NCBI GenBank assembly: GCA_963842525.1
Contig: CAWJGT010000003.1
Coordinates: 928,001-992,000 of the forward strand
From: an uncultured Holophagales bacterium
GTDB lineage: Bacteria > Acidobacteriota > Thermoanaerobaculia > Multivoradales > UBA5704
Reading direction: 5' to 3'
Length of the DNA stretch: 64,000 bases
The notes below the pieces were generated by a model. That model was not told the origin of the DNA, did not search any database, and worked only from the letters and a program-made list of their open reading frames with translations. Made by a program: the position numbers and the translations under genes. Shown piece by piece: positions 6,535 to 36,745 of the stretch; position 1 is the stretch's first letter; every line of letters begins with the position of its first letter.

Positions 6535-6596
6535 GTTCAAGCACCGCAAGACCCGGGCCGTATGCCGGGCGCAGAGATCGCCTCGGAGGGGTCCCG

Positions 6597-7514
6597 ATGA
6601 CGCAGGAACGACCGCGAGCCGTCCGCCTGGGGGGAGCCCCGGGCTATGCCCTCACAGTGGACCTGGAGGAGTGGTATCACACCTGTCTGGTCCCGAGCTA
6701 TGTGCACCCCGAGGACCGTCCGGACCTGCCGCAGGAGCTGGACCGGCTCCTGCCCGAGCTGCTGGAGGTCCTGGCCGCACACGGCTGTACGGCCACGTTC
6801 TTCGTGCTGGGCGAGGTGGCGAAGCGGCTGCCGCACCGCGTCCGCGAGATCGCCGCGGCGGGGCACGAAGTGGCGAGCCACGGGTATCTCCATCTGCGCG
6901 CCTGTGAGCGCTCGCTGCGCGATTTTGCTGGCGACCTCCGGAGGTCGAAGGCGCTGCTGGAGGACGTCGTGGGCGAGCAGGTCCTCGGTTTCCGCGCCCC
7001 GGAATGGTCGCTGCGCAGTCTGGACAGCGCCCGTCTCCCGCTGGTGGCCGAGGCCGGCTTCCTCTACGACAGCTCCCTCGCGCCATATCCCTTGTCCGGA
7101 CGGCTGAGCAATCCCCGTTTCGCCTCGCGCCTGGTCTGGGAGGGCACCGTCCGCCGGGACCTGCTGGAGTTTCCACCCCTCACCTTCGGCGGTGTGCTGC
7201 GGCTGCCCGCCGGGAGCTGGACCGGACGGATGGTCCAGCCGTCGACGCTGGCCGATGCGGCCCGGTCGCACCGCGCCGCGGGCGGGCTTCCCGTGGCGGT
7301 GGTGCATCCCTGGGAAATCTCGGGCCGGCCCACGCCAGGCCGGCTGACCGGCGTCGCGCGCTTCGTCCACGAGACCGGCCGGCTCCGCTTTGCCGCGCGC
7401 TTCCACGAGCTGTTGCAAGCGCTTCCCTGGACGACGGTGCAGGCCGCTTCCACCGGCCTGGCGGCCGCGGTCGAGACAGCGCTTCCGCTGCGGGCCGCGC
7501 GCCGGGCAGGCTGA
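6597..7514 (+). CDS. Polysaccharide deacetylase (DUF3473-type)
   Basis: LTVDLEEWYH, ATFFVLGEVA, HEVASHGYLH, GFRAPEWS, YDSS, VHPWE. Confidence 0.85.
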   Translation: MTQERPRAVRLGGAPGYALTVDLEEWYHTCLVPSYVHPEDRPDLPQELDRLLPELLEVLAAHGCTATFFVLGEVAKRLPHRVREIAAAGHEVASHGYLHLRACERSLRDFAGDLRRSKALLEDVVGEQVLGFRAPEWSLRSLDSARLPLVAEAGFLYDSSLAPYPLSGRLSNPRFASRLVWEGTVRRDLLEFPPLTFGGVLRLPAGSWTGRMVQPSTLADAARSHRAAGGLPVAVVHPWEISGRPTPGRLTGVARFVHETGRLRFAARFHELLQALPWTTVQAASTGLAAAVETALPLRAARRAG

Positions 7515-25890: not shown

Positions 25891-26655
25891 CTACACCGGG
25901 TTCGGCACGTCGATGAACTCCGCCTCGATCCTGAACTTCTCGGCGAGGTGCTCGCCCAGGGCCCGGATGCCCAGCCTTTCGGTCGCGTAGTGGCCGCAGG
26001 CGAGGTAGTGGATCTTCGCCTCGCGGGCCACGTTCATCACCCATTCGCTCACCTCGCCGGTGATGTAGGCGTCGAGGCTTTCGGCGATGGCGCCGTAGAG
26101 CTCTCGCTGCGCGCCGCCGCTGATGATGCCGAGGGTGCGGACGGGGTCTGGGCCTTCCAGGAAGGTCATCGGCTCCTGGCTGTAGACGCGGCGGCAGCGG
26201 GCGATCAGCTCGGCGACCGCGATGCGCTCGGGGAAACGGCCCTTGAAGCCGATCGGCATCCCTTCGTGCAGGCCGAACGCCTCCAGGTCGACCAGGCCCA
26301 GGTCCCGGCAGGCGATGGCGTTGTTGCCGAGCTCGGGGTGGCGGTCGAGAGGGAGGTGGTAGGCCAGGAGGTTGATGCCGGCCTTGATCAGCTCGGCCAG
26401 CCGGCGGTACTGGAAGCCGGTCACGACGCGCGGCATCCCCTCCCAGAAAAGGCCGTGGTGGACCAGGACGGCGTCGCCTCCGGCCTCGCGGGCGCGGACG
26501 AAGAGCTCGTGGCAGGCCGAGACGCCGGTCACCACTTTCCGGATCTCCTGCCGGCCTTCGACCTGGAGGCCGTTCGGGCCGTAGTCGCGGCCGTGGGCCG
26601 TGTCCAGGAGCTGATCGAGATAGGTGACGAGGGTCTGGCGATCGACGGTGGGCAT
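25891..26655 (-). CDS. Nif3-like dinuclear metal centre protein (YbgI)
   Basis: [38 protein letters not shown]. Confidence 0.92.
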
Positions 26656-26808
26656 GGCGCCGAGTCTACCAGCGAAGCGGAACACGCTGAAGGATGCGGC
26701 GAGCCTGTGCCGGTGGGCTCCCAGAGGAGAGGGCTCAGCTTGCATATCGAGGAGCTCTCTTGGTATGTACCAGACGGGTCCATTTTCATGTTATATGTTT
26801 GTGTTTGT

Positions 26809-27012
26809 ATGAGACGCACATCCGTAGAGATCGACGAAGAGCGGCTCGCCCGGGCCCAACGGGCGCTGGGCACGACAGGCATCAAGGACACCATCGACCG
26901 GGCATTGGACGAGGCCCACAGGGCCGAGTTGCGTCGCCGCCTCGCCGAACGCATCCGATCCGGCGAGGGAATCGACCGCGGCGAGGAGCTGCTCAAGGCA
27001 AGCCGCCGGTAA
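26809..27012 (+). CDS. VapB-family antitoxin with no adjacent toxin
   Basis: [33 protein letters not shown]. Confidence 0.75.
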
Positions 27013-27052
27013 GGGGCAACGGAGCCGGCGGGAGCCTCCGTAGACTCTCTAC

Positions 27053-28049
27053 ATGCACGCGACAATCCTCACCCTCCTGACCCTCCTCCCGGTCCAGGCA
27101 CCTCCCCCGAAACCCCCGGAGCCGGCGAGCCTGATCGAGATCCATGTCAATCCGCTGGTAGACCTCCACTACTGGGTCCGCAGGCTGGCGGCCGAAAGCG
27201 GCGAGCTGCCGGCGATCGACGGTCTGCCTGCCGCGGTGGCGGCCGTGCGACGGGTGGGCACCGATATCGGCGGCCCGATGGCCTGGGGTGTGATCGATGG
27301 CGGCCTGGTCGAAGCCGGGAGCGTGGACGAGCTCGCCCGCCTCGCCGCCGCTCTCCCCGAGACGTTCCAGACGAGGGGCGGGCGCGAGGTCCGGCTCCGG
27401 GAGGCGGTGGCGCGCCTTGCCGAGGCATACCGCCCTCTGGAGAAGCTTTTTCTTGAAAAGATCTGGCCTGTGCACCGGAAAGCCTCCGAAGAGGTGGCGG
27501 CCGGGCTGCGCCGCGACGTCCTGCCGAAGGCGCCGGAGGTCTTCGCCGACCTGAGCCGCCACCTGGAGGTTCCGGTCCCGAGCCGGCCGGTCCCTGTCTA
27601 CCTCGTGGGGGCCGCTCCCTTTCCGCGAGCGTTCACCCACAGGTCGCAGAGCGGCGGGGTCTGCATCGTGGCTCTGGCGGGGATGCCGGCGTCCGAGGCC
27701 CGGGAGACGATGGTCCACGAGCCGATCCATGCGCTGGACCTGGCTGGAGGGGAGGGGGACGTGCTCTCCAAATTGGACTCCCGGCTGCAGGGCTGTTCCC
27801 GGCGCGTCTCCCCAGGAGGTCCATGACTTCGTCCACACCCTGATGTTCGTGCAGGCGGCGGGGACGGTGCGGAAGGTCCTGGACCCGGGCCACAAGGACT
27901 ACGGTGACACCGCGGGCTACTATCCCAAGGTGCCCCGCGCTACTGCCGTGGTGCGCCCCGCCTGGGAGGCCTACCTCCGCGGCGAAATCTCCCGGGACGC
28001 CGCCCTGGAGCGGATCGCCGCGGGGTTCGCCCAGGCTACAATTCCATGA
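27053..28049 (+). CDS. Secreted HExxH-motif protein, frameshifted near 27800
   Basis: Signal-like N-terminus and VHEPIH motif. Continues in another frame (VHDFVHTLMF...) to a stop directly before the DGR target ATG. Confidence 0.55.
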
Positions 28050-31000
28050 ATGCCTGAGAGCCACACGGCCTTCCTCAGCTATGCCCATCAGCATGAAGCG
28101 TGGGTGAGGACGCTGCACGCCAACCTGGAGCGGTGCCTTGCCCATCTCGGGCGGCCGGGGACGGTGTTCCTCGATCAGGTGGACCTGGGGGCCGGCCGTT
28201 CCTGGGTGGGGCAGCTTCAGGCGGGGCTCGAAAAAGCCGGCCGGCTGATCCTGGTGGCGACTCCCGAAGCGCTTGCTTCGCCGCGGGTCGCCGACGAGTG
28301 GGAGACCTTCATCGCCCGCCGCCGCGACTGGCGGCAGGGGAATCTCCAGGTCGTCCTGCTGATCGATGCGCCTCTGCCGCCCTTCCTGGATGGCGTCCAG
28401 CGGGTGGATTTCCGGCGCGGCGGCGAAGCGCAATACCGCCGGGCGCTGCAGGAGCTGCTGTCGGGCCTCCTTGGCCACGAAGACCGGCGCGACCTGCCGG
28501 CGCTCTCTCCAGAGATCGAGATCCCGGCGGCGCCCGATCCCGGTCTGCCTAAGGAGCTGCGCGGCCGGTTGGTGGCCTGGCTGGCGCCGGCCGTGCGGAG
28601 CAGGATGCGCCGCCTGGCAGTCGCTTCGGGGCTCCGCCTGGAAAGCAATGCCCTGGAGGGACACCCCTCACCCGAATGCGCTGCCTCGGCAGCCCTGGTC
28701 CTCGCCACGGGAAAGGATGACCCGGTCCAAGGGGCTTTGCGGATCGTCGACGTTCTGGCCGAGCTGGTGGAGGAGGAAGAGCCCGAGCGGGCGGCCGAGC
28801 TGACGCCGCTCCGCGCCGAGCTCGAAGAGCTGCGTGGCGCCGGCCCCGAGCGCGGCCTCCTGCGCGTCTACCTGGAGGCGGTCGACCGGGACCATGCGGA
28901 GCTGGTGCCCTACTTCCAACGCCAGGCCGAGCTGGCCCTGCTCGACCGGGTGTACGTGCAACTCGAGCTGAGGCCGGAAGAGCGCGGTTTTGCCGCGCGG
29001 GAAGGGACCGGCGGGGGAGCTCCTGCGGCCGCTGGGCCTGCGGGAGCTGTTGGAGCTCGATCCGGCGGAGCACCGCTGGGTTACCCGCCGCTGGGTGGTG
29101 CGGGGCGATCCGGGAGCGGGCAAGACGACGCTCCTGCGGCACCTCGCCGCCACCCTGGCGAAGGAAGAAAAGGAAAATCCGCGCCCGCGCCGGGTGCCGG
29201 TCTTCGAATCGCTGCCGCGCCTGGTCCGGGAGCGCGACCCGCTGCTGAACCGGCTGGCCCGCCGGCTGGAGCGCGCCGGCCATCCGGCCCAGGGGCTCCA
29301 GGCCGTGCTCGACCGGGCGGGACAGGAAGGACGGCTGGTCCTTCTCTTCGACGGCCTGGACGAGGTGCCGAAAGAGGAGCGCGACGAGGCCGAAAAGATG
29401 CTGCGCGACGTCGCCGCCCTCTGGCCGTCCTCCACGCTCGTCGTCACCACCCGTCCCATCGGTTATCACCGGCTCGGCCATGAGCTCCTCGAGCTGGACC
29501 TCCTGCCGCTCGACGCCGGCCATCGCCGGGAGTTCCTTGCCCGCTGGTTCGGCCGGCGTGCCGGCGCCCCCGATTTCGCGCGCGCCGACCGCGAGCTTCC
29601 GGTCCTCGAAGAAGATCCCGGGCTGCGGGAGCTGGCAGGCAACCCGCTCTACCTCACTCTGATGGCGCTGCTGCTGGAGAAAGGGACCGCGCCCGACCGC
29701 AACCGCACCCGGCTCTACGACCAGGTCTTCGAGCTGCTGCTCGAAGGCAAACACCGTCCCGATGGCGAGCCCATCGACTGCCAGGCCGGCGTGCGGGAGG
29801 TCCTGCGCCACCTCGGCTACGGCATGACGCTGGACAACCGGGACACCGAGCCGGTGACCGCCCTGGAGGCGCGGCTCTACCAGCCGGAAGCCGACCGCCT
29901 GCGCGAGCCCCTCGAGCGCGTCGCCCGCTGGCGGACGAGCCTGCGGCCCTTCCTCGATGACCTGTCGCGCAAGACCGGCATCCTCGGCCCGCACGACGGC
30001 CCGGACGCCGATTGGCGCTTCTGGCACCGAACTTTCCGCGAGGCCCTGGCAGCCGAGCGGCTCGAGCAGTTAGCGGCAAGCCGTGGCAACGAGGCCATCC
30101 TGGCGTTCGCCCGTGAGATTGCCGGCGACGAGAGCCGCTGGGCCGAGCCCTTCGCCCTGCTCACCGGCCGGATCGCCGACCCGGACGGCCTCGTCCGTGC
30201 CCTGGTCGAGGCCAACCGCTCCCTCGGCCTGCGCGCCCTGGCCACGGCCCCGGAGACTGCGGCCCGAGACCCTCACGGCGGTCCTCGCGCTCAGCGAGCA
30301 ATGGCAGGAGAGGGCCGAGGTCTACCGCCGCCTCCCCGAGCTCGTCGGCGACCCGGAGCGCGCCCTGGCACTCCTCGACCGGCTGCGCCGGCAGACCCGC
30401 AACGGCAACGACCTCTACTTCCTGGACCTCGCCGTGCGCTCGGCCGGCGAGCGCTGGCCGGACCACGCCCGAAAGGCCGCCGATTTCCTCAGCCGGTTCT
30501 ACAGCCACATCCCGCCACCGCCGGACGACCTCTTCCAGTGGATCGACACGCCCCTCGACGGCCGGGTCCCCCTGTGGCGTGAGATCCCGGCCGGCCGGTT
30601 CTGGATGGGAAGCCCGGAGGGAGAAGGGGACAAAGACGAGCACCCCCGCCACGAGGTGGTGCTCACCGCGCCTTTCCGGATCGGCGCGGTGCCGGTCACC
30701 AACGCACAGTACCTGGCCTTCGACCCGGAGCATCAGGCGACCCCGTGGGAAGGGGTCTCTGCGGCCGACCTACGCTTCCATCCCGCCGAGAGCGTCACCT
30801 GGTTTGAGGCCATGTCGTTCTGCCGCTGGCTTGCCGCGCGAGCCCCTTGGGCGCGCGGCGCCCGGTTGCCGCTGGAAGAGGAATGGGAGCACGCCTGCCG
30901 TGCTGGGACCGAAACTCGGTACTGGAGCGGAGACGACGACGCCGGCCTGGAACGCGTCGGGTGGTACGGAGCCAACTCCGAGGACCGGACGCACCGCGTT

Positions 31001-31321
31001 GGCGAAAAACCGGCGAACGCCTGGGGTCTTTACGACGTGCACGGCAATGTATGGGAGTGGACGGCGAGCCTTTTCACCCAGCAGTATGAAATCCCCGAAG
31101 GTGGGGTCCGCCTCGATTCCGCGGCCGTCGAGCCGCCTCTTGAGACCGAGCCCAGCGGCGCGAGGCGCGTGATGCGTGGTGGGTGCTCTTGGGATGTCGC
31201 GGTCTGGACGCGTGCGGCGGTTCGCGGCATCGGGAGCCCGGGCCTCGTGATCGGGAACCAGGGCTTTCGCGTTCTGCTCCCCGGCGCCCCGAGCTTCCAG
31301 GCTATAGATCTTGGATCATAG
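28050..31321 (+). CDS. DGR target: TIR + NACHT NTPase + FGE-sulfatase (CLec) domain; frameshifts near 29010 and 30250
   Basis: TIR: FLSYAH, VFLD, SPRVADEW. NACHT: GDPGAGKTT, LLFDGLDEV, GNPLYL. FGE: GRFWMGS, RLPLEEEWEHACRAG, NAWGLYDVHGNVWEW, RGG..W, GFRV. Confidence 0.88.
31151..31295 (+). repeat. DGR variable region (VR)
   Basis: Ungapped 145-bp match to 32646-32790 with 16 mismatches. Confidence 0.95.
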
Positions 31322-31651
31322 AGGGTGTGTTCTATGCGGCCGGCACGGCAGCCGGCGGCAAGAATTGACCCTTTTGCTGCCGCTGGCGGTGAAGAAAGCG
31401 GTGACGGTGACCCCCGAAAGGCAGGTTTCCGGCCGGCCGGGCAGGAGCCGATGATCCAATCGTGGAGCCCCGACCGCCCAGCATTGTCCGTATCTTGCTG
31501 GCTCTGCCACCCCAATGACCTTGGTGGCCAGCTTTGCGCCGCCAGATGGTCAAGATGCTGCCGTTTTCGGCAAAGCGTGCCGGAAAGGTGTAAGCGATGT
31601 CTGGTGTAAGAGTCTGCGGACTGCGGCGTTCTCTGAAAGGAGGACCCGAGC

Positions 31652-32251
31652 ATGGAGCTTTCCATCCGAGAGGTCGCAGTCTTGCTGGGCCGGAGCCCCC
31701 GGACGGTGCGTGCACAGGCGTCGCGGGGAGACCTGCCCGGCGTCAAGCGCAACGGGCGCTGGCGCATCGAACGCCGCAACCTGCCCCTCACCGAAGACCA
31801 GCGGCGCGCTCTGCAGGCCAAGGCCGATACGATCCGCGACACCGTGGAGGCCGCGCTGCCGTCGCGGATGGCGCGCTCGGCCGGGCAGCGAACGCGCTCC
31901 ATCGCCGATCTCGAGGCGTTCCGCCGGGGAGCGCAGCTCCTGGCGGAGATCCGGGCCGCGAGCCCGGAAACCTTCCGCAGCTCGATTCACGCGCGGGTAA
32001 GCCGTCTTCTGGAGAGGGCATTGCTGGCTTTGGCCGAAGCGGTCCAGCAATTCGACAGCGGGCTCAAGCTGGCGGCGGCGAACCGTGCCCGTGCGGAGCT
32101 GGCCCAGGTCACAGGGCTTCTCCTATTGGAAGCCGGAGTGCCACCCGCTGAGCCGGTCCACCGCTGGGTGAACGTTCTGGAAGCCGAGGTCATCCCGATG
32201 GTCGCTGCATTCGCCCGATGGGCCGACGGCCTGCGTGGGGGACGCCGGTGA
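31652..32251 (+). CDS. HTH_17/excisionase-like domain fused to a helical, Avd/IVP-like bundle (DGR accessory)
   Basis: LSIREVAVLLGRSPRTVR...LPGVKRNGRWRI, then SIADLEAFRRG and amphipathic helices. GTGA overlap with avd. Confidence 0.7.
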   Translation: MELSIREVAVLLGRSPRTVRAQASRGDLPGVKRNGRWRIERRNLPLTEDQRRALQAKADTIRDTVEAALPSRMARSAGQRTRSIADLEAFRRGAQLLAEIRAASPETFRSSIHARVSRLLERALLALAEAVQQFDSGLKLAAANRARAELAQVTGLLLLEAGVPPAEPVHRWVNVLEAEVIPMVAAFARWADGLRGGRR

Positions 32252-32667
32252 GCTGGCGGGAAGCGCCGCTCTACGTGGAAGCCCACGACCTCGCGGCCTG
32301 GGTCATGGAACGGGTGAATGCCTGGGCATGGGACCGGGACCGCAACCTCGCCCCCCTCGTCGCCGCTGCGGCTTCCGAGCTCCTCGCTCAGATATCTCTT
32401 GCTTTGACCTTCCCCGGGACGAGGAGTTCACACCTGGAGCAGGCCGATCATGCAGTCGTCCGGTTGCGGGTGCTCTTGCGTCTCTCACACCAGCTCGGAC
32501 TGTTGTCTGCGGGCAGTCTCCGCTTCGCCTCGGGTCGGCTGCAGGCTGTCGGCCGAATGATCGGCGGCTGGCGCAAGCGGTTCGAGCATCCAACTGAAGG
32601 AGACCGTAATAACCAGCCTTTGGAGCTTGATCCAGGGGGCGGGCCCCCAGCGGCGCGAGGCGCGTGA
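32248..32667 (+). CDS. avd: Accessory variability determinant Avd
   Basis: Four-helix pattern: APLYVEAHDL, LRVLLRLSHQLGLLS, VGRMIGGWRK. Lies directly before the TR. Confidence 0.85.
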   Translation: MSWREAPLYVEAHDLAAWVMERVNAWAWDRDRNLAPLVAAAASELLAQISLALTFPGTRSSHLEQADHAVVRLRVLLRLSHQLGLLSAGSLRFASGRLQAVGRMIGGWRKRFEHPTEGDRNNQPLELDPGGGPPAARGA

Positions 32668-32790
32668 TGCGTGGTGGGAGCTCTTGGAATGACGCAGACA
32701 GGACGCGTGCGGCGTATCGCAACATCAGGAACCCGGGCAACGAGATCAGGAACCAGGGCTTTCGCGTTCTGCTCCCCGGCGCCCCGAGCT
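32646..32790 (+). repeat. DGR template repeat (TR)
   Basis: 27 adenines, five AAC/AAT codons and an A-free 3' tract. Lies between avd and RT. Confidence 0.95.
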
Positions 32791-32936
32791 CGCGGCAAAA
32801 TGCAATACCGGCCCCGAGCAGGTCCGCCCCCGGCGGTGGGCTTCGGCCCGTCCGCTCACGCCCACCCGTTCCAGTAGCTCCGGAGCAACGGATCGCTCTG
32901 GGACGACCGTCCGGGTGGGCACTTTCTTGACTTGTC

Positions 32937-33945
32937 ATGCGGACTGCTACCGGCCTCTTTCGTGTTCTGTGCGATCCGAGCCACCTCGAACGAGCGGCGG
33001 ATGCGACGGTGCGTGAAAAACGGCGGCGGCCCGATGTCGCGTGGTTTCTTTTTCACCGCGACGAAGAGCTGGCGCGGCTCGGTGCTGACCTCACGGCCGG
33101 CCGATACCACCCCGAACCTCCCAACCTGATCACGATCCGGGACCCCAAGCCGCGCTTGATCGCGCGGGTGCCGATCACCGACCGCGTCGTCCACACCGCA
33201 CTGGTCCTCCTCATGGAGCCTGTTTTCACGCGAAGCCTTTCTCCGGATGCTTATGCGTGCAGGCCCGGCTATGGAACACACCGCGCCGTCTTGCGTCTGC
33301 TGGAGCACATCCGCAAGCATCGTGTTCTCATCCACCTGGATATCAAGAGCTACTTCCCCAGCGTCGATCTCGAGGTGTTGCGCTGTCTACTGCGGCGGCG
33401 GATTCGTGACGAAGCGTTCCTGGCCGTCGTGGATCGGGTGCTGGCTGCGGGGTCGGGGATCTATGACGCGCCGCAAGCTCGGGCTCGCGCGTGCCTTGCT
33501 GCTGACTGGCCGCCTCCCGGCCGCGGCCTGCCGATCGGGGCCTACACCAGCCAGCTCTTCGCGGCTCACGTCTATCTCGGCGAGCTCGACCATTTTGTGA
33601 AAAGAGAGCCTCAAGGTCCCCGGGTATCTCCGTTATGTCGATGATCTGTTCCTTTTTGGTGAACGACGCATAGACCTTAGGCGGTGGCGAGCCGAGGTGG
33701 GGAGCTGGCTGGCGCAGGAGCGGGGCCTGAGGCTGAAGCACCCGGAAGCACGGATCCTATCTTGCCTGGGTCACCTGGATGCGTTGGGATACCGCATTTC
33801 CCGGGAAGGCATTCGGTCGCTGCCACGCACGTTGCGCCGGCTCGGAAGCAGGGTTGCCCAGGAGCTGTGCCGGCCGGCTCGCAGATCACCGTGCGCGGAG
33901 CTTGCGCGCTCTATCGCTGCCTCTGCAGGAGTCGTGTTGTTTTGA
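32937..33945 (+). CDS. DGR reverse transcriptase, +1 frameshift near 33609
   Basis: IRDPKPRLI, DRVVHTAL, YACRPGYGTHRA, LDIKSYFPSVD, GLPIGAYTSQLFA. After removing one C: KVPGYLRYVDDLFLF (YVDD at 33634-33645) and DALGYRI. Confidence 0.92.
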
Positions 33946-33983
33946 GGCGCCGCCCTGGAGCGGATCGTCGCGGGGTTCGCCAA

Positions 33984-34015
33984 GAAATAAAAACGGCGGG
34001 CCCGGAGGCCCGCCG
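33984..34015 (-). terminator. Rho-independent terminator after pnp
   Basis: Minus strand: cggcgggcc-tccg-ggcccgccg followed by tttttatttc. Confidence 0.85.
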
Positions 34016-34040
34016 CTACGGTTCCCGATGAATGTGTGCC

Positions 34041-36296
<2,256 letters not shown>

Positions 36297-36475
36297 AGCT
36301 TTTCTTTTTCCTTGTTTTCGCTTGTCTCTCGTCTGCCTACGTGCCTGCTCGTTGCGGGATCGGCCGTGGCCGGCTTCGGGTTTCGAGGCGGGCCTGGCAG
36401 GATGGAGCAGTCCCGACCCCCTGGTGGGGCAACCCCCAGAGCGCGTCGGGACTCTTCCTGCCGGATCGAGGAGGG

Positions 36476-36745
36476 CTACTTGCGGAGCCCGAGGCGCTCG
36501 ATGGTGGCGCGATAGCGCTCGAGGTCCTGCCCCTTGAGATAGTCGAGCAGGCGGCGGCGGCGGCCCACCAGCTTCAGGAGGCCGCGGCGGCTGTGGTGAT
36601 CCTTCGTATGGGTCTTGAAGTGGCCGGTCAGCTCCGTGATCCGATTGGTCAACAGAGCGACCTGCACTTCCGGCGACCCCGAGTCCGTGTCATGGACCCG
36701 ATACTGTTCGATGATCTGCTTCTTGACTTCCGTGGTTTGCGCCAA
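36476..36745 (-). CDS. rpsO: 30S ribosomal protein S15
   Basis: [26 protein letters not shown] start after AAGGAGGA. Confidence 0.97.

What the first reader, a model, noticed from the sequence alone, without database searches (positions are those of the whole stretch)
28050..33945. Chromosomal DGR hypermutating the sensor domain of a TIR-NACHT (NLR-like) protein
Seen: VR 31151-31295 aligns without gaps to TR 32646-32790. There are 16 mismatches in 145 bp and 15 fall at TR adenines (A>G x7, A>T x7, A>C x1). They change 12 residues: TR SSWNDADRTRAAYRNIRNPGNEIRN vs VR CSWDVAVWTRAAVRGIGSPGLVIGN. avd and an RT flank the TR. Established: adenine-specific TR-to-VR retrohoming defines DGRs (Bordetella BPP-1 model), FGE-sulfatase/CLec folds are common targets, and TIR and NACHT/STAND domains are effector and oligomerisation modules in bacterial anti-phage proteins. 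Inference: this is an intracellular receptor with a ligand-binding site diversified within the population and coupled to a TIR effector, akin to an adaptive immune receptor repertoire. I recall similar architectures reported in multicellular bacteria, so the novelty is probably the lineage and accessory genes rather than the concept. No phage or integrase genes are nearby.
Basis: partly seen in the sequence, partly recalled or inferred. Interest (0 to 1): 0.95.

Follow-up and report, generated by a model that had tools for sequence, protein, structure and literature searches.

The report
Retroelement that hypermutates NLR-like sensors
A bacterial retroelement rewrites, with random changes at set positions, the tip of two TIR-NACHT proteins built like immune receptors; this kind of system is already published, and here it turns up in a new lineage with an extra conserved helper gene.

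Summary
TR 32646-32790 and VR 31151-31295 align without gaps, and 15 of 16 mismatches fall at TR adenines (p = 2.7e-12). The cassette is a diversity-generating retroelement (DGR): a TIR-NACHT-CLec target, an HTH_17 protein, Avd, TR and RT.

New here:
- A paralogous target 430 kb away carries a second VR; all 10 of its substitutions are at TR adenines.
- The frameshifts in the target (2) and the RT (1) are probably assembly indel errors. infB and rpoB are frameshifted too, and about 840 similar junctions occur genome-wide, 81% in the +1 direction.
- The HTH_17 gene is conserved in 33 of 35 close RT relatives. Its C-terminal half is predicted to fold as a four-helix bundle that resembles Avd weakly.
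- The cassette lies in a variable islet between a NIF3-family gene and pnp and is bracketed by a 37-nt duplication. None of 5 same-genus genomes has it there.

The host is probably a Thermoanaerobaculia (Acidobacteriota) genome. DGRs that diversify CLec sensors on NACHT/STAND proteins, some with TIR, are already in print (Dore 2024; Wu 2018). This is therefore a new member of a known kind. The immune role, TIR activity and ongoing diversification are untested. Interest is moderate, not 0.95.

The parts
27998..28034 (+). Left copy of a 37-nt direct repeat. It is the 3' end of the gene upstream (27053-28049).
   Evidence: 35 of 37 identical to 33948-33984. Sequence read.
28050..31321 (+). Target gene, copy 1: TIR_2 (about 28071-28457), NACHT (about 29089-29553), helical region, FGE-sulfatase/CLec (about 30581-31276). 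It reads in three frames, with +1 shifts near 29013 and 30256.
   Evidence: Pfam TIR_2 3.5e-18, NACHT 1e-15, FGE-sulfatase 3.8e-42. Colinear with the intact 1102-aa ortholog P0002 in three frames. Extra bases located against the paralog. Walker A/B and the conserved TIR Glu are present.
31151..31295 (+). Variable repeat VR1, the last 48 codons but 8 of the target.
   Evidence: 16 mismatches to TR, 15 at TR adenines.
31336..31360 (+). Candidate GC-rich stem-loop about 40 nt downstream of VR1, inside an 86-nt post-VR stretch that is 81/86 identical downstream of VR2. Weak evidence.
   Evidence: Seen in the fold of 31280-31400, but the z-score is only -1.6. The 86 nt after the VR are 81/86 identical between the two copies.
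31652..32251 (+). Accessory gene (199 aa): N-terminal excisionase-type HTH_17, C-terminal four-helix bundle. Its end overlaps the avd start by 34 nt.
   Evidence: HTH_17 6.2e-10. Present 0.3-2.2 kb upstream of the RT in 33 of 35 loci with RT at least 48% identical. AF2 model pLDDT 89.8. Foldseek top hits are Avd-family bundles, with weak E-values.
32218..32667 (+). avd (149 aa)
   Evidence: Pfam bAvd 5.3e-9, 37 bits against a cut-off of 40. NCBIfam NF033474 DGR Avd 2.7e-11, profile positions 6-104 of 104, 43.7 bits against a cut-off of 80.
32646..32790 (+). Template repeat (TR); its first 22 nt overlap the end of avd.
32937..33945 (+). DGR reverse transcriptase, 335 codons in two frames, with one +1 shift near 33605-33610 between the FVKRE and LKVPGY motifs. 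The motif 'IGxYTSQ' and YVDD are present.
   Evidence: Colinear with 335-aa homologs. Profile hit to the DGR RT 8ub7_A, 162 bits.
33948..33984 (+). Right copy of the 37-nt direct repeat. It encodes the displaced original C-terminus of the upstream gene, followed by its stop codon.
33995..34014 (.). GC-rich hairpin between the displaced gene end and the convergent pnp (34041-36296, minus strand); a likely shared terminator.
   Evidence: Read from the sequence. A similar hairpin sits at the empty site of a same-genus genome.

Best explanation
This is a chromosomal diversity-generating retroelement of the cellular lineage that diversifies NLR-like sensors. The host genome is about 10 Mb and 68% G+C, and is probably a Thermoanaerobaculia (Acidobacteriota).

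Proposed mechanism: the TR is transcribed. The RT, working with Avd, copies it into cDNA and misincorporates opposite template adenines. The cDNA then replaces the homologous 145-nt VR at the 3' end of two paralogous genes, one inside the cassette and one 430 kb away. Each target is a protein of about 1090 aa built as TIR - helical linker - NACHT NTPase - helical domains - CLec (FGE-sulfatase fold). The mutable adenines recode about 17 codons of the CLec domain.

Shown here: the parts, their order, the adenine-specific mismatch pattern in both VRs, the DGR type of the RT, and the NLR-like fold.

Inferred, about 0.5: the CLec tip binds an invader-derived ligand, NACHT oligomerises, and TIR acts as the effector, probably an NADase. 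No member of this class has been tested.

Inferred, about 0.7-0.8: the real genes are intact, and the three frameshifts in the cassette are assembly errors.

Inferred, about 0.6: the conserved HTH_17/four-helix-bundle protein is a working part of this DGR clade, either a regulator or a DNA-targeting helper.
For: TR/VR pattern:
- VR1 has 15 of 16 mismatches at TR adenines (p = 2.7e-12). VR2 has 10 of 10 (p = 1e-8).
- 19 of the 20 adenines at TR positions 34-103 are changed in at least one VR. None of the 7 adenines outside that span is changed.
- At non-A positions VR1 and VR2 agree at 117 of 118, while the genes average 89.8% identity in 145-nt windows (range 74.5-97.9%).

Parts:
- The RT profile gives 162 bits to the DGR RT 8ub7_A and 85 bits to group II RTs. 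Only one such RT is in the genome.
- Avd matches the DGR Avd model end to end.
- The CLec domain's best solved relative is the DGR variable protein TvpA (3.3e-18 by sequence; 7.9e-14 by fold). The NACHT module matches NOD2, NLRC4 and NLRP3.
- Walker A, Walker B and a TIR Glu conserved in at least 90% of 40 homologs are present in both copies.

Relatives:
- The order target-HTH-avd-TR-RT recurs, with A-only TR/VR mismatches: L007 14/14, L008 13/13, L009 19/19, L015 20/20, L045 16/16.

Frameshifts as artefacts:
- infB is split at HMM position about 386.
- The first ~70 residues of rpoB lie in another frame.
- 840 frameshift-like junctions occur genome-wide, 678 of them +1.
- All cassette shifts are +1 single-base insertions with no other damage.
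- The orthologous target (1102 aa) and the upstream gene (332 aa) are intact in L087.
Against: - As assembled, the RT and both targets are frameshifted, and no reads could be obtained to settle this.
- rpoC is intact, and 7 of 10 long window genes cover their profiles nearly end to end. Errors are therefore frequent but not everywhere.
- My scan flagged only 2 of the 5 homology-verified junctions. The genome-wide rate, and so the expected number in the cassette, is rough.
- Avd, RVT_1 and bAvd score below their curated cut-offs.
- The target gave no meaningful PADLOC hit; the best were 17-19 bits.
- The post-VR hairpin is not significant (z = -1.6).
- VR1 has one non-adenine mismatch.
- The 117/118 identity at non-A positions is only slightly above the best gene window (97.9%).
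- There is no experimental evidence anywhere for TIR activity or defence in this class. Dore et al. say the role 'remains to be experimentally tested'.
Confidence: 0.82

Rival explanations
1. A dead or decaying DGR. The frameshifts in the RT (1), target copy 1 (2) and target copy 2 (3) are real, so the VRs are frozen relics of past retrohoming.
For: The assembly shows these shifts. Three in 5.9 kb, plus three in the last 0.3 kb of copy 2, is at or above the scan-detected average of 1 per 9.9 kb of coding sequence. No reads were available.
Against: The essential genes infB and rpoB carry the same kind of shift. Of 840 genome-wide junctions, 81% are +1 on both strands, which is a technical signature. 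Every cassette shift is a single inserted base, and there are no stops, deletions or lost motifs. The TR and both VRs are still identical at all but one non-A position. The orthologs are intact.
Confidence: 0.13
2. A working DGR whose targets are not anti-phage immune sensors. The diversified TIR-NACHT-CLec proteins might serve kin or self recognition, or some other signalling, and the TIR might act as a scaffold rather than an NADase.
For: No member of this class has been tested (passages of PMC10907252). PADLOC models of known defence proteins do not recognise the target. No phage-related or other defence genes were seen among the neighbours I annotated.
Against: The three-part layout of effector, NACHT and variable C-terminal sensor is that of tested bacterial NACHT/Avs defence proteins and of NLRs (passages of PMC10907252; fold matches). 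The TIR Glu and Walker motifs are conserved. In some relatives an Mrr-type nuclease domain (PF04471) is listed with NACHT and FGE and TIR is not (its position in the protein was not checked), which may be a swap of effector.
Confidence: 0.3
3. A phage- or mobile-element-borne DGR that diversifies a receptor-binding protein for host switching, as in the BPP-1 model.
For: The cassette is an insertion bracketed by direct repeats and is absent from this locus in 5 of 5 same-genus genomes. The accessory protein has an excisionase-type HTH.
Against: The flanks are housekeeping genes with no phage structural genes or integrase. The target is a cytoplasmic-type TIR-NACHT protein, not a tail fibre. The second target sits 430 kb away in the chromosome.
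Confidence: 0.02

Closest known systems
Clade 5D cellular DGRs of Dore et al. 2024 (PMC10907252), e.g. Thiohalocapsa PB-PSB1 DGR 3 and 6
   Same: The targets have one C-terminal CLec domain carrying the VR and a central STAND NTPase (NACHT or nSTAND1). There are commonly two targets per DGR, and some have N-terminal TIR or peptidase effectors. They were proposed to be antigen sensors (passages read).
   Different: The host here is probably a Thermoanaerobaculia. 'Acidobacteri' and 'Thermoanaerobaculia' occur 0 times in that paper's main text. The second target here is remote (430 kb away) rather than adjacent. I could not place the RT in their tree, so clade membership is untested. They mention an HTH gene only for clade 5A (DGR 8), in a different role. 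Their supplementary figures could not be seen.
DGR target categories b7-b11 of Wu et al. 2018 (PMC5758913)
   Same: Nine DGRs whose targets combine Toll-like receptor, NTPase and related domains, grouped under the FGE-sulfatase/C-type-lectin category b (passage read).
   Different: Only four accessory gene classes are named there (avd, HRDC, MSL, CH1), plus unnamed PAG1-4. 'Helix-turn-helix' occurs 0 times in the text. The supplementary tables could not be seen.
Bordetella phage BPP-1 DGR (mtd-avd-TR-brt) and its solved bRT-Avd RNP (PDB 8ub7)
   Same: avd-TR-RT core order, adenine-specific TR-to-VR mismatches, and a VR at the 3' end of a CLec-fold protein. The RT profile matches 8ub7_A at 1.3e-46, including the shared motif around 'PIGxxTSQ'.
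   Different: Chromosomal rather than phage-borne. The target is an intracellular multidomain NTPase, not a tail-fibre tip. There is an extra HTH gene and there are two targets. No IMH/IMH* mismatch pair is evident: the last 42 nt of TR and VR are identical.
Treponema denticola TvpA (PDB 2y3c)
   Same: Best solved relative of the variable domain, both by sequence (3.3e-18) and by fold (E 7.9e-14, TM-score 0.70 normalised by target): a CLec/FGE-type fold diversified by a DGR.
   Different: TvpA is a 294-residue chain in the PDB entry with no NTPase or TIR module. From memory, it is a lipoprotein.
Bacterial NACHT (bNACHT) and Avs anti-phage STAND proteins; animal NLRs
   Same: Effector - STAND NTPase - variable C-terminal sensor layout. 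The model of the ortholog aligns over about 550 columns with NOD2, NLRC4, NLRP9 and NLRP3 (E about 5e-12).
   Different: The sensor is a CLec domain rewritten by a retroelement, not a germline-fixed repeat or TPR sensor. PADLOC gave no significant match. The NCBIfam EruA NACHT model gave only 36.9 bits.

Membership tests
Diversity-generating retroelement (DGR) | RT of the DGR lineage, not group II intron or retron | tested here: met
   RT-family profile: 162 bits to 8ub7_A (DGR RNP RT), 85 and 82 bits to group II RTs, 81 and 78 bits to chains the PDB labels 'retron-type RT', and 22 bits to the retron entry 22et. The motif 'IGxYTSQ' and YVDD are present. No formal phylogeny was built, because no reference RT set was at hand.
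Diversity-generating retroelement (DGR) | TR/VR pair whose mismatches fall at TR adenines | tested here: met
   VR1 15 of 16 (p = 2.7e-12); VR2 10 of 10 (p = 1e-8).
Diversity-generating retroelement (DGR) | VR at the 3' end of a target ORF, in a CLec or Ig fold | tested here: met
   VR1 ends 26 nt before the stop codon and lies inside the FGE-sulfatase match. The fold matches TvpA.
Diversity-generating retroelement (DGR) | Accessory Avd next to the TR | tested here: met
   NF033474 covers 6-104 of 104 profile positions at E 2.7e-11, but 43.7 bits is below the 80-bit cut-off. Pfam bAvd 5.3e-9.
Diversity-generating retroelement (DGR) | IMH at the VR 3' end and a downstream hairpin or cruciform | tested here: inconclusive
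   A GC-rich, invariant 42-nt 3' end is shared by TR and both VRs. The stem-loop at 31336-31360 lies in sequence conserved after both VRs, but its fold z-score is -1.6.
Diversity-generating retroelement (DGR) | Intact RT and target reading frames | tested here: inconclusive
   There is 1 +1 shift in the RT and 2 in the target. They are most likely assembly errors, but no reads were available.
Diversity-generating retroelement (DGR) | Ongoing diversification (VR polymorphism in a population) | not testable with these tools
   The look-up of sequencing runs listed no run. Indirect evidence only: two VRs carry different A-substitutions from one TR.
Clade 5D DGRs (Dore et al. 2024) | RT falls in clade 5D of their RT tree | not tested
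Clade 5D DGRs (Dore et al. 2024) | Two targets, each with a single CLec and a central STAND NTPase | tested here: met
   Two paralogous TIR-NACHT-CLec targets, one of them remote. In relatives, NACHT is found in 25 of 35 and FGE in 32 of 35 close loci, often one target on each side of the RT.
NACHT / STAND NLR-like proteins | NACHT NTPase with Walker A and Walker B | tested here: met
   Pfam NACHT 1e-15. The motifs GDPGxGKT and LLxDGLDE are conserved in at least 90% of 40 homologs and present in both copies.
NACHT / STAND NLR-like proteins | Three-part effector-NTPase-sensor architecture with an NLR-like fold | tested here: met
   AF2 model of the ortholog P0002 (pLDDT 81.6). Foldseek hits to NOD2, NLRC4, NLRP3 and NLRP9 at E 5e-12 to 1e-9.
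NACHT / STAND NLR-like proteins | Anti-phage or cell-death function | not testable with these tools
PADLOC models gave no significant match.
TIR-domain effectors | TIR fold and conserved catalytic Glu | tested here: met
   Pfam TIR_2 3.5e-18, profile positions 2-121 of 122. A Glu in the motif 'S.RV.DE' is conserved in at least 90% of 40 homologs and present here. Calling it the catalytic residue rests on my memory of TIR motifs, not on a structural superposition.
TIR-domain effectors | NAD+ cleavage | not testable with these tools
   A biochemical assay is needed.

The most novel reading that the evidence does not exclude
The 199-aa HTH_17 protein between target and avd may be an undescribed, clade-specific fifth class of DGR accessory factor. 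It would combine an excisionase-type DNA-binding head with an Avd-like four-helix bundle. It might tether the RT-Avd ribonucleoprotein to VR-flanking DNA, which would explain how one TR serves a target 430 kb away, or it might switch the cassette on. Separately, the cassette is a discrete 5.9-kb insertion with a target-site duplication, in a hotspot that is empty or differently filled in relatives. This hints that DGR/target modules of this clade move as units by an unknown route.
Probability: 0.3. Interest if true: 0.65.

Novelty: new member of a known kind. Interest (0 to 1): 0.45.

Why it matters
DGR-diversified NLR-like proteins are the nearest bacterial analogue of a somatically diversified immune receptor, and none has been tested at the bench. 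This locus adds four things.

1. A lineage, probably Thermoanaerobaculia, that is absent from the main texts I searched and is not known to me to be multicellular. That bears on the proposed link between these DGRs and multicellularity.
2. A clean case of one TR serving a cis target and a distant trans target that are 10% diverged paralogs.
3. A compact four-gene cassette (target, HTH, avd, RT) with natural empty-site and target-only alleles in relatives. That makes it a convenient unit for reconstitution.
4. A conserved HTH/four-helix-bundle gene that the surveys I could read do not list among DGR accessory genes.

It is also a caution: the apparent pseudogenes in this assembly are mostly technical.

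Tried and rejected
Reads. The look-up of sequencing runs on 27900-34050 listed no run. Neither VR polymorphism nor the frameshifts could be checked, and read laying was not used.

HTH C-terminal domain as an Avd paralog by sequence. hhalign of the HTH family (A3) against the Avd family (A4) gave probability 1%. None of the 31 HTH family members hit a Pfam Avd model at E up to 1. Only the predicted fold resembles Avd: Foldseek E 0.01-0.5, TM-score 0.54-0.73 normalised by target, and other generic four-helix bundles appear in the same list. I treat this as a lead only.

Complex prediction of Avd with the HTH C-terminal domain returned no verdict: score 0.23, under the mark of 0.32, and the controls were not run. 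This says nothing for or against binding.

- The protein-atlas search on the HTH protein gave only 'hypothetical protein' HTH_17 clusters.
- PADLOC gave no meaningful hit for the target.
- Rfam found nothing in 26000-36500.
- The post-VR hairpin is not significant (z = -1.6).
- No flanking direct repeats were found around target copy 2.

Homogenisation test. 117/118 identity at non-A positions is in the expected direction, but it is only slightly above the most conserved gene window (97.9%), so it is supportive and not decisive.

Pseudogene reading of the frameshifts: considered and mostly rejected. My frameshift scan is a home-made codon-usage heuristic. It flagged 2 of the 5 junctions verified by homology, and its other positives were not checked individually. 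Two independent checks were made: rpoB is split and rpoC is intact.

Phage origin: rejected on context.

Taxonomy rests on the names that sources give to the best PNPase, target and RT homologs, not on a marker-gene tree.

Literature. Searches were run. I read passages only, by 'find', of PMC10907252, PMC5758913, PMC7159879, PMC11661182 and PMC8144416. No whole paper was read and no supplement was seen. None of the 12 papers listed holds 'diversity-generating retroelement' together with the Acidobacteriota or Thermoanaerobaculia terms. Supplementary tables (Wu's PAG1-4, Dore's Fig. S11 and Dataset S3, Roux's data) may already list this lineage or the HTH gene.

Full report
OBSERVATION. Positions 32646-32790 (TR) and 31151-31295 (VR1) align over 145 columns without gaps and with 16 mismatches. 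Fifteen mismatches are at TR adenines (A>G x7, A>T x7, A>C x1). One is T70>G, next to the mutated A71. The TR has 27 adenines, so the hypergeometric probability of at least 15 of 16 at A is 2.7e-12.

ANATOMY. All parts lie on the + strand.
- Target, 28050-31321: TIR_2 3.5e-18, NACHT 1e-15, FGE-sulfatase/CLec 3.8e-42.
- A 199-aa HTH_17 protein, 31652-32251 (6.2e-10).
- avd, 32218-32667. Pfam bAvd gives 5.3e-9. NCBIfam DGR Avd covers 6-104 of 104 profile positions at 2.7e-11, below its cut-off.
- TR.
- RT, 32937-33945.

The RT family profile scores 162 bits against 8ub7_A, 85 and 82 bits against group II intron RTs, and 22 bits against the retron entry 22et. One search names 8ub7 as the DGR ribonucleoprotein RT. 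The motif 'IGxYTSQ' and YVDD are present. The variable domain's best solved relative is the DGR variable protein TvpA (3.3e-18).

I modelled the intact ortholog P0002 (1102 aa, 84% identical to copy 2 and 75-89% to the pieces of copy 1) with 44 aligned rows, giving pLDDT 81.6. The model matches TvpA (E 7.9e-14) and, over about 550 columns, NOD2, NLRC4, NLRP9 and NLRP3 (E about 5e-12 to 1e-9). Walker A, Walker B and a TIR Glu conserved in at least 90% of 40 homologs are present in both copies. Calling that Glu catalytic rests on my memory of TIR motifs.

A SECOND, REMOTE TARGET. The TR has a third match in the genome, at G000:C3:1390965-1391110. It is the VR of a paralogous target gene: window 28037-31382 aligns to C3:1387854-1391200 at 89.8% over 3357 nt. 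This copy lies 430 kb away and has no RT of its own. The genome holds only one DGR-type RT; the other RT hits are multi-copy ORFs, mostly of about 450-530 aa, that score like group II intron RTs. VR2 differs from the TR at 10 positions, all adenines (p = 1e-8), plus a 1-nt indel.

Together the two VRs have changed 19 of the 20 adenines at TR positions 34-103 and none of the 7 adenines outside that span. At non-A positions the two VRs agree at 117 of 118, against a gene-wide mean of 89.8% in 145-nt windows (range 74.5-97.9%). This fits both VRs having been rewritten from the one TR after the paralogs diverged, but on its own it is not decisive. Across the protein family, the high-entropy columns coincide with the adenine-bearing codons.

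ARE THE FRAMESHIFTS REAL? As assembled, target copy 1 reads in three frames, with +1 bases near 29013 (G5 against G4 in the paralog) and 30256. The RT reads in two frames, with one extra base between the FVKRE and LKVPGY motifs. Copy 2 has three +1 bases near its 3' end. The gene upstream is split near 27800. Nothing else is damaged: each piece is colinear with intact homologs of about 1080 aa or 335 aa.

Several results point to assembly error.
- The essential infB is split in the same way. HMM positions 5-387 lie in one frame and 385-582 in another, at about 40031.
- The first ~70 residues of rpoB lie in a different frame from the rest. rpoC is intact.
- A codon-usage scan of the whole genome found 840 junctions where coding signal jumps frame on the same strand well before the stop, among 8035 coding segments covering 8.31 Mb. 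Of these, 678 (81%) shift by +1, equally on both strands.
- In a related metagenome contig (L087) the orthologous target is one ORF of 1102 aa and the upstream gene one ORF of 332 aa.

Counter-points: 7 of 10 long window genes cover their profiles nearly end to end. The scan is a heuristic that flagged only 2 of the 5 junctions I verified by homology. No reads could be listed. I put about 0.75-0.8 on the genes being intact in the organism.

RELATIVES AND THE EXTRA GENE. A scan of one genome per species with the RT profile found 210 relatives, of which 80 loci were kept. They come from MAGs labelled Thermoanaerobaculia or Acidobacteriota, Planctomycetota (including the isolate Engelhardtia mirabilis), Myxococcota and others.

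Among the 68 loci with at least 1.4 kb of sequence upstream of the RT:
- 35 have an RT at least 48% identical to this one. In 33 of these an HTH homolog lies 0.3-2.2 kb upstream on the same strand; 28 have avd there, 25 have NACHT, 32 have FGE and 7 have TIR.
- 29 have an RT below 43% identity. Only 2 of these have the HTH gene.

Relatives show clean A-only TR/VR pairs: L007 14/14, L008 13/13, L009 19/19, L015 20/20, L041 13/13 and 10/10, L045 16/16. There is usually one VR in an upstream target and one in a convergent downstream target.

The HTH family (31 sequences) gives a confident model (pLDDT 89.8): an N-terminal winged HTH followed by four long helices. The Foldseek top hits are 2gsc and 2rld, which from memory belong to the Avd-like '23S rRNA intervening sequence' bundle family, and the chains B, C and D of 8ub7, which I take to be its Avd subunits. 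The N-terminus matches a phage Xis and BldC. The E-values are weak (0.01-0.5) and generic four-helix bundles also appear. Sequence methods see no link to Avd. The synteny makes this gene very likely a working part of this DGR clade. Its role, whether regulator, DNA-targeting helper or RNP subunit, is open.

GENOMIC SETTING. The best named hits of PNPase are all Thermoanaerobaculia or Acidobacteria MAGs at 84-89% identity. The neighbours are housekeeping genes: metG and tatD; a NIF3-family gene, rpsO and truB; pnp; and infB and nusA.

The cassette is bracketed by a 37-nt direct repeat, 27998-28034 and 33948-33984, with 35 of 37 positions identical. The right copy is the displaced original end of the upstream gene, followed by its stop codon and a hairpin shared with the convergent pnp.

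In all 5 same-genus genomes the pnp end was found, and none has the target or the DGR there. In G001 the upstream-gene homolog runs straight into the hairpin and pnp. In G002-G005 pnp lies next to the NIF3-family gene. L087 has the target gene only, with no HTH, avd, TR or RT, between the upstream gene and pnp. That insert is flanked by its own different duplication of 71 nt at 82% identity. The NIF3-pnp interval is thus a variable islet with at least four states. The mechanism is unknown and I found no recombinase.

DGR-type RTs are sporadic in the class: 10 of 200 sampled genomes at E up to 1e-45, and 2 of 5 same-genus genomes, both with distant RTs.

WHAT IS KNOWN. Dore et al. [quoted passage not shown] They propose antigen sensing and state that it is untested. 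Wu et al. 2018 (PMC5758913; passages) list nine DGRs whose targets combine Toll-like receptor and NTPase domains, and name four accessory classes (avd, HRDC, MSL, CH1). Kaur et al. 2020 (PMC7159879; passages; the author name is from memory) link DGR-diversified FGS domains to conflict systems.

None of the main texts I searched mentions Acidobacteria. None lists an HTH accessory gene for this clade. Supplements were closed and may hold both.

VERDICT. The concept is already published, so it is a new member of a known kind.

Noticed in passing
whole genome G000; in the window infB at about 40031 (minus strand); rpoB at G000:C9:670320-674532: The assembly carries many single-base frameshifts. 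There are 840 frame-jump junctions by my codon-usage scan, 81% in the +1 direction, and infB and rpoB are among the split genes. Apparent pseudogenes anywhere in this genome should be distrusted.
   Followed up: yes
window 27998-28034 and 33948-33984; L087:2905-2966 and 6540-6610; L185-L189: The interval between the NIF3-family gene and pnp is a variable islet. It holds nothing in 4 same-genus genomes, only the unknown upstream gene in 1, that gene plus the target alone in L087, and the full DGR cassette here. The two filled states are flanked by different direct duplications of 71 nt and 37 nt. No recombinase is nearby.
   Followed up: partly
L007:1441-1476/7174-7209; L013:3011-3664/14461-15151; L047:3728-3909/13579-13772: Some related DGR loci also have direct repeats on either side of the cassette (36 nt, 691 nt, 194 nt). 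I did not check whether these mark insertion boundaries.
   Followed up: no
L087:6265-6340 and scores of sites in G000 (for example C9:711489-711559, C4:225009-225074): A dispersed repeat of about 60-75 nt sits just after the VR in L087 and gives about 90 blastn hits at about 82-93% identity across G000. It looks like a REP- or MITE-type element.
   Followed up: no
L006:9467-9690 (G000:C3, about 350 nt downstream of target copy 2): A tandem array with a 102-nt period, 2.2 copies at 97% match, with 20-nt sub-repeats.
   Followed up: no
G000:C19:363528-364373, C6:149765-150610, C9:858345-859190, C12:17550-18395 and others: Several sets of RT matches with equal scores, in open frames mostly of about 450-530 aa, score like group II intron RTs (about 107 and 100 bits to the DGR RT profile). 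They are probably active or recent group II introns.
   Followed up: no
G000:C24:128769-133506 and C3:1674615-1676520: Clusters of further FGE-sulfatase/CLec paralogs, four in tandem on C24. Other NACHT-FGE proteins lie at C28:6227-8188, C34:147436-148572 and C4:102938-104062. None matches this TR.
   Followed up: no
window about 17208 (+ strand) and about 54991 (minus strand): The scan flagged two more frame-jump junctions inside the window. They were not verified by homology.
   Followed up: no
The search for homologous proteins list (for example P0097, P0103, P0105, P0113, P0095, P0110): Some homologs of the target list other domains besides NACHT and FGE-sulfatase. PF04471 (Mrr-type nuclease, named from memory) appears without TIR in P0097, P0103, P0105 and P0113. 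P0095 lists PF01381 and related families (HTH, named from memory), and P0110 lists PF12770 (CHAT). Domain positions were not checked. This may be swapping of the effector module on a conserved NACHT-CLec chassis.
   Followed up: no
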